A stretch of 18,842 nucleotides of DNA from a virus. The translations under genes and the position numbers were made by a program. The DNA lies in the UHGV virus genome UHGV-0125022; one strand, written 5' to 3'. Each line of letters opens with the position of its first letter. Position 1 is the stretch's first letter. The notes below the pieces were generated by a model. It worked only from the letters and a program-made list of their open reading frames with translations. It was not told the origin of the DNA and made no database searches. This document shows positions 10,299 through 12,268 of this stretch, one piece after another.

Positions 10299-10483
10299 AC
10301 GCCACAATTCAAACGATACCAGAGCTTCTTATCCAGACACGAGGCAATCAGACCGAAGTGGCGAGGATGCTTTCCTGCGCAAGAGGAACAGTGCTCAAGT
10401 ACAACCGAGACAGAAAAGGCGAGCGTCACGTAATAGTTAACGGCGTCCTGATGGTCAAACAGGGCAAGAGGGGTAGACCATGA
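10295..10483 (+). CDS. ninH: NinH-like protein
   Basis: TIPELLIQTRGNQTEVARMLSCARGTVLKY resembles lambda NinH as recalled. Located just before Q. Confidence 0.75.
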   Translation: MNATIQTIPELLIQTRGNQTEVARMLSCARGTVLKYNRDRKGERHVIVNGVLMVKQGKRGRP

Positions 10484-11103
10484 GACTCGAAAGCGTAGCT
10501 AAATTTCATTCGCCAAAAAGCCCGATGATGAGCGACTCACCACGGGCTACGGCTTCTGACTCTCTTTCCGGTACTGATGTGATGGCTGCTATGGGGATGG
10601 CGCAATCACAAGCCGGATTTGGAATGGCTGCGTTCTGTGGTAAGCACGAACTCAGCCAGAATGACAAACAAAAAGCCATCAACTATCTGATGCAATTTGC
10701 ACACAAGGTATCGGGGAAATACCGTGGCGTTGCAAAGCTTGAAGGAAATACTAAGGCAAAGGTACTGCAAGTGCTCGCAACATTCGCTTATGCGGATTAT
10801 TGCCGTAGTGCCGCGACGCCGGGAGCAAGGTGCAGAGATTGCCACGGTACAGGCCGTGCGGTTGATATATCAAAAACAGAGCTGTGGGGGAGAGTTGTTG
10901 AGAAAGAATGCGGAAGATGCAAAGGTGTCGGCTATTCAAGAATGCCAGCAAGCGCCGCATATCGCGCTGTGACGATGCTAATACCCAACCTTACCCAACC
11001 AACCTGGTCACGCACTGTTAAGCCGCTGTATGACGCTCTGGTGGTGCAATGCCACAAGGAAGAGTCAATCGCAGACAACATTTTGAATGCGGTCACACGT
11101 TAG
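10480..11103 (+). CDS. Q: Late-gene antiterminator Q (lambda Q type)
   Basis: 207 aa. Sequence matches lambda Q over essentially the full length as I recall it, including the zinc-binding CRDCHGTGR...CGRCKG. A lambda-like pR' follows. Confidence 0.9.
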   Translation: MRLESVAKFHSPKSPMMSDSPRATASDSLSGTDVMAAMGMAQSQAGFGMAAFCGKHELSQNDKQKAINYLMQFAHKVSGKYRGVAKLEGNTKAKVLQVLATFAYADYCRSAATPGARCRDCHGTGRAVDISKTELWGRVVEKECGRCKGVGYSRMPASAAYRAVTMLIPNLTQPTWSRTVKPLYDALVVQCHKEESIADNILNAVTR

Positions 11104-11145: not shown

Positions 11146-11183
11146 TTGACTTTTTGAATAAAGTTGGGTAAATTTGACCCAAC
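11146..11183 (+). promoter_or_regulatory. Late promoter pR' with qut region (-35 TTGACT 11146-11151, -10 TAAATT 11169-11174, 17-bp spacer)
   Basis: TTGACTTTTTGAATAAAGTTGGGTAAATTTGACCCAACGATGGGTTAAT is near-identical to the lambda pR'/qut sequence as recalled. Confidence 0.75.
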
Positions 11184-11206
11184 GATGGGTTAATGCCTTC
11201 GTTTAA

Positions 11207-11241
11207 AGCCCCGCGGATAACACCGTGGGGCTTTTGCGTTT
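11207..11241 (+). terminator. tR'-like terminator about 25-60 nt downstream of the pR' start
   Basis: AGCCCCGCGG / CCGUGGGGCU 10-bp stem with one G-U pair and an AUAACA loop, followed by UUUGCGUUUC. Confidence 0.6.
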
Positions 11242-11253
11242 CTGGAGGTAACG

Positions 11254-11272
11254 GCGAGGCGCTACCCTCGCC
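11254..11272. terminator. Second hairpin (GGCGAGG / CCTCGCC, 5-nt loop) between tR' and the 3' end of the convergent minus-strand gene; possible bidirectional terminator
   Basis: 7-bp perfect stem read from the sequence. Weak T-tracts on both sides. Confidence 0.4.
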
Positions 11273-11278
11273 TTAACA

Positions 11279-11695
11279 TTAAGGGAGGGTTTTCATTACG
11301 CTATCAATCTCCCTTCCTTCAAATCTTGAAGTCCAGCCGCAGGAGCCGCAATGGTAAGGAAAGTCATCGAACCCGCTACCGACCTGTTTAAGACAGTTGG
11401 GGCAATAAACCGCGCTGATATACCCACCCGCGGGATTTTTTCTAAAGGCCGCACCCATGTGCTCGACAAACTCATCCTTTGCCCGATAAGCCGCTATTTC
11501 CTTCTCAAGTTCTACGTTCTTGGCTTTCGCCTCGGCAAGTTCTGCTATGGTGGCAGCATGGGCTTTTTGAAGTACGTCGATCTGCTCTCCAATGAAAGCG
11601 ATGCGCTCGCGCAGGACCTCGTTACTTTGCACAGCAGAAAGCGCGCCGATCCCGTTTTTAAGGGACGCGATAAGTAATCCTACATCCATGGTCAT
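11279..11695 (-). CDS. Hypothetical cargo protein: N-terminal coiled-coil-like region plus C-terminal CxxC...CxxC zinc ribbon, convergent to late transcription
   Basis: 138-aa ORF. C-terminal CPNC-x14-CGSC. N-terminal heptad-like, Ala/Glu/Lys-rich segment. AGGGA Shine-Dalgarno. Start may be M1 (11695) or M3 (11689). Confidence 0.6.
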   Translation of the reverse strand: MTMDVGLLIASLKNGIGALSAVQSNEVLRERIAFIGEQIDVLQKAHAATIAELAEAKAKNVELEKEIAAYRAKDEFVEHMGAAFRKNPAGGYISAVYCPNCLKQVGSGFDDFPYHCGSCGWTSRFEGREIDSVMKTLP

Positions 11696-11944
11696 TCCCT
11701 AATTGTCTGTGGAATGACCAATTTAGCAATTTCCTTTATCTGTGGAAAGCAGGGAAACCACGCGCCGGGCGTGGATAAATATCCCGGTATTGAATCGACT
11801 GTTGGCTGCCGCTTGGCGGCCTTTTTCATTTCAGGCTCACGGGAATCATCCGCTACGTGCTTTGTTGATAAATCCATCCCGTGAAGCCTGACCCTTTTCA
11901 AACACACACACACAGCGCCATCCGAAAAATCGGAGGTGAGGCCT

Positions 11945-12268
11945 ATGAAAATGCCATACAAACAAGATTTCATCGCTGCGCTACTTGCCGCCAAGGAGCA
12001 GGGTATTGGTGCAATGCTGGCTTTTATCATGGCGTATCTGCGTGGTCGCTATAACGGCGGCGCGGTAACAAAAACGCTAATTGATGCGCTGATGTGCGCG
12101 ATGATTGCCTGGTTCGTTCGTGACCTTCTGGACTTTATCGGCCTGAGCAGCAACCTCGCCTACATAGCCAGCGTCTTTATTGGATACATCGGCACCGATT
12201 CGATCGGCAATCTTATTAAAAAACTTGCAGCAAAAAAGGCGGGAGTTGACGATGCAAACCAGTCCTGA
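11945..12268 (+). CDS. S: Class I holin S (lambda S type) with dual-start motif
   Basis: [27 protein letters not shown] resembles lambda S105/S107 as recalled. GGAGGTGA Shine-Dalgarno. ORF track begins at an in-frame GTG at 11936. Confidence 0.9.

What the first reader, a model, noticed from the sequence alone, without database searches (positions are those of the whole stretch)
11689..11720. 10-bp inverted repeat spanning the start codon and Shine-Dalgarno of the convergent cargo gene
TGGTCATTCC and GGAATGACCA are exact reverse complements separated by 12 nt. On the minus-strand mRNA the downstream arm contains the AGGGA Shine-Dalgarno and the first ATG, so hairpin formation would occlude translation initiation. 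As DNA it is a good candidate operator for a dimeric regulator.
Basis: seen in the sequence. Interest (0 to 1): 0.45.

Follow-up and report, generated by a model that had tools for sequence, protein, structure and literature searches.

The report
Antisense-RNA stem-loop beside a prophage promoter
The inverted repeat is real, but it most likely is not a hairpin on the cargo gene's own mRNA or a repressor site: it sits in a copy of the promoter-plus-antisense-RNA unit known from the sieB gene of phages P22 and lambda, here attached to a different gene, where it probably forms the first stem-loop of an antisense RNA made when the phage turns lytic.

Summary
The 10-bp inverted repeat (11689-11698 / 11711-11720, 12-nt gap) is exact. 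On its own it is not rare: 0.35 are expected per window.

It lies in a roughly 100-bp module at about 11685-11790. This module is homologous to the region upstream of sieB in lambda and P22. There, RefSeq annotates the sieB promoter and RNA start, and published reads place the sas antisense RNA on the opposite strand.

By homology, the cargo mRNA starts at about 11713. That is inside the upstream arm, so the cargo's own mRNA cannot form the hairpin. The arm sequences are not conserved among related modules, which argues against a protein operator.

A covariance model built only from lambda/P22-type sequences finds the window's + strand at 11685-11780 (22 bits, E 0.001). Two downstream hairpins covary strongly, and their G·U pairs favour the strand opposite the cargo gene.

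The repeat is therefore best read as the 5' stem-loop of a sas-like RNA. That RNA would be produced when Q-antiterminated late transcription reads through, and it would pair with the ribosome-binding site and AUG of the cargo mRNA.

The module is portable. It precedes many different prophage accessory genes, almost always antisense to the surrounding operon. No RNA was measured here, so expression and mechanism are inferred.

The parts
11689..11720 (+). The finding's inverted repeat (arms 11689-11698 and 11711-11720, loop 11699-11710). Read here as SL2', the 5'-proximal stem-loop of a sas-like antisense RNA. Its loop, CUAAUUGUCUGU, is complementary to the first nucleotides of the cargo mRNA.
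   Evidence: The + strand RNA folds at -15.3 kcal/mol, z -3.5. The equivalent helix is enriched in related modules.
11685..11780 (+). sas-like antisense RNA region: SL2', linker, SL1', hairpin A'.
   Evidence: Model R1, built only from lambda/P22-class sequences, gives 22 bits, E 0.0011, full length, and is the top hit in the window. P22 sas reads map to the equivalent stretch of P22.
11730..11756 (+). SL1': TTTCCT (11730-11735) pairs with AGGGAA (11751-11756), including one U·G pair. The loop carries the complement of direct repeat DR1. An alternative 5-bp helix pairs 11730-11734 with 11744-11748.
   Evidence: Model alignment. Covariation of this helix across 44 distinct sequences.
11759..11775 (+). 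Hairpin A': CCACGC / GCGTGG with a 5-nt loop. It is the 3'-terminal hairpin of the sas-like RNA.
   Evidence: The stem covaries, e.g. CCTCA/TGAGG in Providencia.
11720..11728 (-). Cargo promoter -10 with a TG extension: TGcTAAATT. The hexamer is 11725..11720.
   Evidence: A TAnnnT hexamer sits at the same place in 36 of 36 distinct modules. It is homologous to the annotated P22 sieB promoter.
11743..11748 (-). Weak -35-like TTTCCA, 17 bp from the -10. It lies inside direct repeat DR1.
   Evidence: Read from the sequence. Same position as in the P22 sieB promoter annotation.
11736..11747 (-). Direct repeat DR1, TTCCACAGATAA.
   Evidence: D3. A pair of 6-12-nt (nearly all 8-12) repeats 32-35 bp apart (32-34 in all but one) was found in about 40 parsed modules, identical within a module but differing between modules.
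11703..11714 (-). Direct repeat DR2, TTCCACAGACAA, which is the 5' end of the cargo mRNA.
   Evidence: In P22 the annotated RNA start is the first base of DR2.
11712..11715 (-). Inferred transcription start of the cargo mRNA. The 7th nt after the -10 is 11713.
   Evidence: By homology with the 'sieB RNA start site' in NC_002371. Not measured here.
11687..11700 (-). Shine-Dalgarno AGGGA (11700..11696) and the true start codon ATG (11689..11687).
   Evidence: All homologues start MD[IV].
11279..11689 (-). Cargo gene, 136 aa: a long N-terminal helix plus a C-terminal CxxC...CxxC zinc ribbon. Function unknown; not a SieB homologue.
   Evidence: (phrog_1244, unknown function).
11146..11234 (+). Lambda-type late promoter pR' (TTGACT-17-TAAATT, 11146-11174) and a tR'-like hairpin (11205-11234). 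This is the likely source of + strand read-through once Q (10480-11103) is made.
11804..11830 (+). Intrinsic terminator. It belongs to a widespread segment upstream of holin genes, not to the module.
   Evidence: Other phages share window positions from about 11802 to 11940 only.

Best explanation
The repeat is part of a portable regulatory module of the kind that precedes sieB in phages P22 and lambda. The module does two jobs on two strands.

On the minus strand it is the cargo gene's own sigma-70 promoter. It has -10 TAAATT at 11725..11720 and a weak -35 inside DR1. The mRNA starts at about 11713, at DR2.

On the + strand the same DNA encodes a structured antisense RNA like P22 sas, at about 11685-11780. 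This RNA overlaps only the first 25-30 nt of the cargo mRNA: the 5' end, Shine-Dalgarno sequence and AUG. It then continues upstream of the promoter as two hairpins, SL1' and hairpin A'. The finding's repeat is the first stem-loop of that RNA, SL2'. The loops of SL2' and SL1' both display the complement of the mRNA's 5' end (DR2), which explains why DR1 and DR2 stay identical within each module.

In the prophage, pR' transcripts stop at tR', so little + strand RNA should cross the module and the cargo protein is made. When Q appears, late transcription runs through the cargo gene in antisense and produces the sas-like sequence. This pairs with the cargo mRNA and blocks its ribosome-binding site.

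Shown: homology, promoter conservation, RNA-structure covariation and its strand, and the genomic orientation rule.

Inferred: the start site in this window, expression of the antisense RNA from late read-through, loop-first pairing, and the translational block.
For: (1) Lambda 34,384-34,481 and P22 29,640-29,757 carry the same ordered elements upstream of sieB: TGCCTG, hairpin A, SL1/DR1, the -10, DR2, then SD-ATG.

(2) NC_002371 annotates the sieB promoter at 29690-29720 and the 'sieB RNA start site' at 29727. That start is the first base of DR2 and the 7th nt after the -10.

(3) The P22A-sas reads published in PMC13397905 are the exact reverse complement of P22 29636-29762. Their 5' end lies 5 nt inside sieB, they overlap the mRNA by 36 nt, and the rest covers the promoter, SL1 and hairpin A.

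(4) Model R1, built without any window-type sequence, hits window + 11685-11780 at 22 bits, E 0.0011. The next best hit scores 9.2 bits.

(5) On the model alignment, 91.8% of cells are paired against 76.9% in shuffles (0 of 500 shuffles reach it). There are 94 double-change cells against 30 expected. Slid controls give 31-55%.

(6) There are 62 G·U cells on the strand opposite the cargo gene, against 13 A·C cells that would be G·U on the cargo strand.

(7) A TAnnnT hexamer is present in 36 of 36 modules at a fixed offset from DR2.

(8) RNA starting at the inferred start site does not form the hairpin. RNA carrying both arms does, on either strand.

(9) Flanking ORFs lie on the antisense-RNA strand: 23.1 versus 3.4 kb on one side and 24.1 versus 4.9 kb on the other, across 30 loci.

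(10) The module precedes SieB-family genes (PF14163) and many unrelated cargo genes.
Against: No transcript data exist for this window. The start site and the antisense RNA are inferred by homology.

The model score for the window is modest (22 bits), and the calibration is rough.

The SL2' helix is strong in only about 40% of modules, and is only about 5 bp in P22. It may therefore be dispensable.

For SL2 itself, G·U and A·C counts show no strand preference (15 versus 11). Its strand is assigned by context, not directly.

The G·U asymmetry was counted on an alignment fitted to a model of that strand.

I could not read the original P22 sas papers. How sas is made (its own promoter, or processing of the PL transcript) is from memory and uncertain. 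I found no convincing + strand promoter just upstream of 11685.

The cargo is not sieB. Whether a sas-type switch makes sense for this gene is unknown.
Confidence: 0.6

Rival explanations
1. The repeat has no function of its own. The module is a sieB-promoter/sas-type unit, but the extension of the 5' helix to 10 bp in this lineage is drift or hitch-hiking.
For: A perfect 10-bp repeat is expected 0.35 times per window. P22 and lambda have only about 5 bp or less here. 21 of 35 modules have fewer than 7 bp. Close relatives carry mismatches: L019, L034, L055.
Against: Helices of at least 7 or 8 bp occur in 40% and 31% of modules, against 7-10% and 2-4% in controls (Mann-Whitney p 2e-5 and 3e-7). 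Unrelated arm sequences keep complementarity, and there is at least one C:G to T:A compensatory change within the window's own lineage (L019/L059).
Confidence: 0.15
2. Fold-back inhibition of read-through transcripts. Minus-strand RNAs that start upstream of the module's own promoter carry both arms and sequester the SD and AUG. Only mRNA from the module's promoter, which lacks the 5' arm, is translated. This is the arrangement described for IS10 and IS50 transposase genes.
For: The 5' arm lies at or upstream of the inferred start site in all strong cases. RNA with both arms folds at -14.8 kcal/mol, z -2.85, and the SD is in the stem. Hairpin A is followed by a pyrimidine/U-rich tract on the cargo strand and could act as an upstream terminator.
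Against: Flanking genes are almost always on the other strand, so there is no obvious source of sense read-through. The neighbouring helices carry G·U pairs on the opposite strand, 62 versus 13. A known RNA, P22 sas, already accounts for structure on that strand.
Confidence: 0.1
3. One reading: a hairpin in cis on the cargo gene's own mRNA occludes the SD and AUG.
For: The 3' arm covers part of the SD and the region up to the AUG. The hairpin is stable if both arms are transcribed.
Against: The conserved -10 abuts or overlaps the 5' arm. The annotated P22 start site is at DR2, downstream of the arm's position. RNA from 11713 or 11715 folds differently (-7.5 kcal/mol, z -1.1).
Confidence: 0.07
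4. One reading: the repeat is a DNA operator for a dimeric repressor that overlaps +1 of the cargo promoter.
For: It spans about -7 to +25 of the promoter, a classical operator position.
Against: Arm sequences, lengths and spacings are not conserved among homologous modules, even within a single phage: the Providencia phage carries two different modules. No regulator gene travels with the module. What is conserved is the centre (DR2), which is asymmetric, not the arms.
Confidence: 0.05

Closest known systems
P22 sieB promoter with the sas antisense RNA (Ranade & Poteete 1993; sas reads in PMC13397905), and the homologous stretch upstream of lambda sieB
   Same: Same order and spacing of elements: TGCCTG/CCCGG, a GC hairpin, a covarying hairpin around DR1, a TAnnnT -10, DR2 at the RNA start, then SD-ATG. 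The unit is antisense to the surrounding lytic operon. The model built from this class hits the window.
   Different: The cargo is not SieB (Pfam finds no SieB domain). It is a 136-aa helix plus zinc-ribbon protein, and no Esc-like internal product is evident. The unit sits in the late operon between pR'/tR' and the holin gene, not in the PL operon. The repeat motif is TTCCACAG instead of ACCCCTACAG. The 5' helix is 10 bp instead of about 5. The hairpin A loop differs.
IS10 RNA-OUT / RNA-IN antisense control (from my own knowledge)
   Same: A stem-loop antisense RNA whose loop is complementary to the extreme 5' end of the target mRNA. Pairing covers the ribosome-binding site. The promoters face each other.
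   Different: RNA-OUT has its own promoter and is a single hairpin. Here there are three hairpins, two loops carry the same anti-5'-end motif, and the RNA probably comes from operon read-through. There is no sequence relationship.
Fold-back inhibition of read-through transcripts in IS10 and IS50 (from my own knowledge)
   Same: The 5' arm lies upstream of the native start site, so only foreign transcripts could sequester the SD and AUG.
   Different: This is the rival reading. Here the flanking transcription runs on the other strand.
Gifsy-1 IsrK (Rfam RF01394; PMC4825925)
   Same: A short terminated RNA between a Q-type antiterminator gene and downstream genes. There is a weak full-length Rfam match at 11749-11826 on the + strand.
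   Different: The score is 21 bits against a gathering score of 50. The match rests mostly on the terminator at 11804-11826, which belongs to a different, widespread segment. IsrK acts on the co-directional orf45-anrP mRNA. The window element is not a member of this family.

Membership tests
sieB-promoter / sas-type module (P22, lambda) | Ordered sequence elements upstream of the target gene: GC hairpin, hairpin around DR1, -10, DR2, SD-ATG. | tested here: met
   Direct comparison of the window with lambda and P22. Alignment A3.
sieB-promoter / sas-type module (P22, lambda) | Match to a sequence-plus-structure model of the antisense RNA, built without window-type sequences. | tested here: met
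   R1 hits window + 11685-11780 at 22 bits, E 0.0011, full length. The next hit scores 9.2 bits. The score is modest and the E-value rough.
sieB-promoter / sas-type module (P22, lambda) | Conserved RNA helices on the strand opposite the target gene. | tested here: met
   Covariation exceeds shuffled and slid controls. G·U cells number 62 against 13 in favour of that strand. The window forms 6 of 6 pairs in SL1' (one U·G) and 6 of 6 in hairpin A'.
sieB-promoter / sas-type module (P22, lambda) | Target mRNA starts at the first base of DR2, about 7 nt after the -10. | not testable with these tools
   Annotated for P22. Only inferred for the window, at 11713.
sieB-promoter / sas-type module (P22, lambda) | An antisense RNA is actually made and switches translation of the target. 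| not testable with these tools
   Reported for P22. No expression data exist for this window.
sieB-promoter / sas-type module (P22, lambda) | The target gene is sieB, with an internal esc start. | tested here: not met
   Pfam finds no SieB domain in the cargo, whereas other modules carry PF14163 genes. The window is therefore a member of the regulatory module family, not of the sieB/esc system.
sieB-promoter / sas-type module (P22, lambda) | Embedded antisense in a lytic operon of a temperate phage. | tested here: met
   The window's unit lies between Q/pR' and the holin gene, on the opposite strand. This is general across 30 loci.
Rfam isrK (RF01394) | Score at or above the gathering threshold of 50 bits. 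| tested here: not met
   21.2 bits.
Palindromic operator of a dimeric repressor | Half-site sequence and spacing conserved among homologous promoters. | tested here: not met
   Arms and spacing vary while complementarity is kept.
Cis-acting SD-sequestering 5'-UTR hairpin | Both arms lie downstream of the transcription start. | tested here: not met
   The 5' arm abuts or overlaps the conserved -10. The start site is inferred from the P22 annotation, so this result rests on homology.

The most novel reading that the evidence does not exclude
The sieB-promoter/sas unit is not peculiar to sieB. It would be a widespread, portable 'expressed in lysogeny, silenced in lytic growth' cassette of enterobacterial temperate phages. 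In one roughly 100-bp piece it combines a promoter for many unrelated accessory or defence genes with a three-hairpin antisense RNA. Two loops of that RNA mirror the 5' end of the target mRNA, and it is switched on simply by read-through of the surrounding lytic operon. As far as I could find, this general module, its covariation and its tandem arrays have not been described. There is no Rfam family even for P22 sas, and no paper contains the conserved hairpin sequence.
Probability: 0.5. Interest if true: 0.6.

Novelty: new member of a known kind. Interest (0 to 1): 0.5.

Why it matters
The result re-assigns a plausible-looking 'operator or hairpin' to the opposite strand. It links an unannotated intergenic stretch of E. 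coli phages (HK225, Louie and relatives) to the one experimentally studied case, P22 sas.

If the generalisation holds, one compact module explains how many prophage accessory genes are expressed in the lysogen yet shut off when the phage itself goes lytic. These include SieB-type exclusion proteins, small membrane proteins and this helix plus zinc-ribbon family.

It also gives annotators a searchable RNA and promoter signature, and it flags the attached genes as candidates for functions that would harm the phage's own lytic growth.

Tried and rejected
- **Window-wide significance of the repeat alone.** Not significant.
- **Rfam.** Only sub-threshold isrK, isrJ and isrD matches in the window. 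Nothing was found for ten related loci or for P22's own sas region.
- **A trans-acting protein that binds DR1 and DR2.** Rejected for three reasons. Repeat types do not follow cargo type. One phage (Providencia PSTCR7lys) carries two modules with different repeats. No regulator gene is linked.
- **A third or inverted copy of the repeat nearby.** None found.
- **Conserved divergent regulator gene upstream.** The neighbouring genes differ from locus to locus.
- **Minus-strand ORF 11692-12030** (annotated in part in phage Louie, ending ATGA on the first ATG). Judged spurious: there is no Pfam hit, only a weak PHROG hit, and it overlaps the module and a terminator.
- **RNAalifold on a plain MAFFT alignment.** It found no structure because the helices shift register. 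This was solved with a covariance-model alignment.
- **G·U strand test on SL2 itself.** Inconclusive, 15 versus 11.
- **Other readings considered from sequence and memory only.** Type III toxin-antitoxin repeats, integron attC, single-stranded-DNA promoters, nut/boxA-boxB, ops, DnaA boxes and alternative sigma factors. The patterns did not fit and were not pursued.
- **Cargo function.** PADLOC gave nothing, PHROG returned a family of unknown function, and there was no significant PDB fold match.
- **The original P22 papers.** Not held in the library.

Full report
**Observation**

TGGTCATTCC (11689-11698) and GGAATGACCA (11711-11720) are exact reverse complements separated by 12 nt. This is the only perfect 10-bp repeat with a 3-20-nt loop in the window. 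However, 0.35 are expected by chance, and 25% of random windows contain one. The repeat is real but not remarkable by itself.

On the minus strand, the downstream arm holds three of the five bases of AGGGA, the first ATG (11695) and the A of the second ATG (11689). All homologues of the encoded protein start MD[IV], i.e. at the second ATG. AGGGA lies 6 nt from that codon, so the gene is 11279-11689 (136 aa).

**Context**

The window is a lambdoid phage. A lambda-type Q gene (10480-11103, Pfam Antiterm) is followed by pR' (TTGACT-17-TAAATT, 11146-11174) and a tR'-like hairpin (11205-11234). Next comes the minus-strand cargo gene, then a + strand terminator (11804-11821), then the holin gene at 11936.

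The stretch 11165-11940 is 98-99% identical in phages Louie and HK225. HK225 has a different Q gene. Other phages share only positions from about 11802 onward. The cargo gene and its upstream region therefore form an inserted unit, antisense to the late operon.

The protein is a long helix plus a C-terminal CxxC...CxxC zinc ribbon (AlphaFold pLDDT 88.7). It belongs to phrog_1244 (unknown function), has no PADLOC hit and has no significant PDB fold match.

**Related loci**

Eighty-two loci encoding homologues were fetched. Their upstream regions fall into several unrelated types, so the promoter has been swapped during evolution.

One type includes the window and loci from Hafnia, Xenorhabdus, Providencia and many viral contigs. 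It shares a fixed architecture:
- a GC hairpin ('A');
- a second hairpin ('SL1') around a C-rich motif (DR1);
- a TAnnnT hexamer;
- 5-8 nt later, a second copy of the motif (DR2);
- then SD-ATG.

Searching for hairpin A alone recovered 40 more contigs. In these the same architecture precedes many different genes. They include two SieB-family proteins (PF14163), small membrane proteins and distant helix plus zinc-ribbon proteins.

DR1 and DR2 are usually identical over 8-12 nt within a module and lie 32-34 bp apart. The motif differs between modules: TTCCACAG, CCCCAACAG, ACCCCTACAG, CACCACAAC and others. The TAnnnT hexamer is present at the same offset in 36 of 36 distinct modules.

**Identification**

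The SieB cargo genes pointed to lambda and P22. The region upstream of lambda sieB (34,384-34,481) and of P22 sieB (29,640-29,757) is this same module.

RefSeq NC_002371 annotates the sieB promoter at 29690-29720, ending in the TAAACT hexamer. It annotates the 'sieB RNA start site' at 29727. That start is the first base of DR2 and the 7th nt after the hexamer.

A 2026 small-RNA survey of P22 lists the reads of the known sas antisense RNA (PMC13397905). They are the exact reverse complement of P22 29636-29762. The RNA starts 5 nt inside sieB and overlaps the sieB mRNA by 36 nt. It then runs on through the promoter, SL1 and hairpin A.

According to the reviews I could read, sas pairs with sieB mRNA and switches translation from SieB to the internal product Esc. 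The original papers were not available.

**Is the window a member?**

A covariance model was built from 13 lambda/P22-class sequences only, with SL1' and hairpin A' as its structure. It finds window + 11685-11780 at 22 bits, E 0.0011, full length. The next hit scores 9.2 bits.

Across 54 loci the model finds 45 copies, several of them second copies within one locus. On that alignment:
- 91.8% of cells pair, against 76.9% in shuffles (0 of 500 shuffles reach it);
- 94 cells carry double changes, against 30 expected;
- slid controls give 31-55%.

G·U pairs on the strand opposite the cargo gene outnumber A·C pairs 62 to 13. An independent count on SL1 gave 19 to 8. This fits an RNA on that strand. 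One caveat applies: the alignment was fitted to a model of that strand.

Rfam has no family for this RNA, not even for P22's own sas. The weak isrK match in the window rests on the neighbouring terminator.

**What the repeat is**

By homology with P22, the cargo mRNA starts at about 11713, inside the upstream arm (11720..11711). RNA from 11713 or 11715 does not form the hairpin (-7.5 kcal/mol, z -1.1). RNA carrying both arms does (-14.8, z -2.85), and so does the + strand (-15.3, z -3.5).

In related modules the equivalent 5' arm often overlaps the -10 itself. The arms differ completely in sequence, length and spacing, yet remain complementary. A helix of at least 7 bp occurs in 14 of 35 modules, against 7-10% in controls, and there is a C:G to T:A compensatory change in the window's own lineage.

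This excludes a conserved protein operator. It makes a cis hairpin on the native mRNA unlikely.

The simplest reading is that the repeat is the 5' stem-loop (SL2') of the sas-like + strand RNA. Its loop (11699-11710) and the loop of SL1' both carry the complement of the mRNA's 5' end. That would explain why DR1 and DR2 evolve in concert. The predicted duplexes of the mRNA 5' end with the two regions are -34 and -18 kcal/mol. This loop-first pairing idea is my inference, by analogy with IS10 RNA-OUT/RNA-IN.

**How it probably works here**

Flanking genes lie on the antisense-RNA strand in almost all loci (23.1 versus 3.4 kb and 24.1 versus 4.9 kb). The module is built to be read through by the surrounding lytic operon.

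In this window that operon is the late operon. In the lysogen, pR' transcripts should stop at tR', and the cargo gene is expressed from its own promoter. After induction, Q-modified polymerase crosses the cargo gene and the module and makes the antisense sequence. This occludes the SD and AUG of the cargo mRNA.

I found no separate + strand promoter. None of this expression logic was measured.

**Rivals**

- The 10-bp helix is a lineage-specific extension without function. It is short in P22 and lambda and absent from most modules.
- Fold-back inhibition of sense read-through transcripts, as in IS10 and IS50. The arm positions fit, but there is no source of sense read-through and the G·U strand bias points the other way.

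**Verdict**

The element is a new member of a known kind: the sieB-promoter/sas module with a non-sieB cargo in the late region. The wider finding is that this module is portable, structured, arrayed and attached to many accessory genes. I could not find this described, and it is the more interesting result.

Noticed in passing
L095 965-1065, L121 4239-4338, L086 1153-1250, L123 9105-9202, L097 2085-2185, L108 4881-4990, L112 168-263 and 1042-1116, L088 3415-3484: Model R1 finds second, more diverged copies of the module within the same loci. Modules with their cargo genes therefore seem to occur in tandem arrays in some prophages.
   Followed up: no
L004 1040-1110 (Providencia phage PSTCR7lys): A truncated module sits upstream of a SieB-like gene. 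About 38 nt are missing (the 3' half of hairpin A, SL1 and DR1), leaving TATAAT, DR2 and SD-ATG. The same phage carries a complete module with a different repeat motif 900 bp away.
   Followed up: partly
L008, L010, L037-L051, L046, L062 (120 nt upstream of the cargo homologue): The same 136-aa gene family is also found behind an unrelated upstream region. That region has a palindrome, CTGATC(TTTT/AAAC)ATCAGGAT, and a conserved CCAGGTTAGGCT. It may be a different regulatory module, and the palindrome is one base short of a LexA box.
   Followed up: no
L003 1765-1998 (Cronobacter phage ES2) and L057: Here the cargo homologue is preceded, 2 nt away, by a small Arc/CopG-like ribbon-helix-helix gene annotated 'regulatory protein'. 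This is a third way of controlling the same gene.
   Followed up: no
window 11749-11826 (+) and 11167-11234 (+): Sub-threshold Rfam matches to the Gifsy-1 small RNAs isrK (21 bits, gathering score 50) and isrJ (15.7 bits, gathering score 37). The isrJ-like stretch is the pR'-to-tR' short transcript. The isrK-like match is mostly the terminator at 11804-11826.
   Followed up: partly
window 11692-12030 (-): A 112-codon ORF ends in ATGA overlapping the first ATG of the cargo gene. Part of it is annotated as a CDS in phage Louie. It overlaps the module, a terminator and the holin start. It has no Pfam hit and only a weak PHROG hit, so it is probably not a gene.
   Followed up: partly
window 11279-11695 (-): Start-codon annotation differs between records: 138 aa in Louie (first ATG) and 136 aa in HK225 (second ATG). 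Homologues and SD spacing support the second ATG. The protein family has no assigned function, and the AlphaFold model (helix 24-72 plus zinc ribbon) has no significant PDB match.
   Followed up: yes
window 11903-11917 (+): A short (CA)n run, ACACACACACACA, lies in the leader upstream of the holin gene.
   Followed up: no
window 11165-11940 compared with HK225 (L001) and E. coli chromosomes (H81-H84): HK225 carries the same cassette behind a different, Qin/82-like Q gene, and homology begins inside the lambda pR' -10. Some E. coli prophages match only the two ends of this stretch, which looks like sites without the cargo unit.
   Followed up: no
window 11248-11277: An inverted repeat, GTAACGGCGAGG / CCTCGCCTTAAC, lies immediately after the cargo stop codon. 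It is probably the cargo terminator, but it has no clear U-run on either strand.
   Followed up: no
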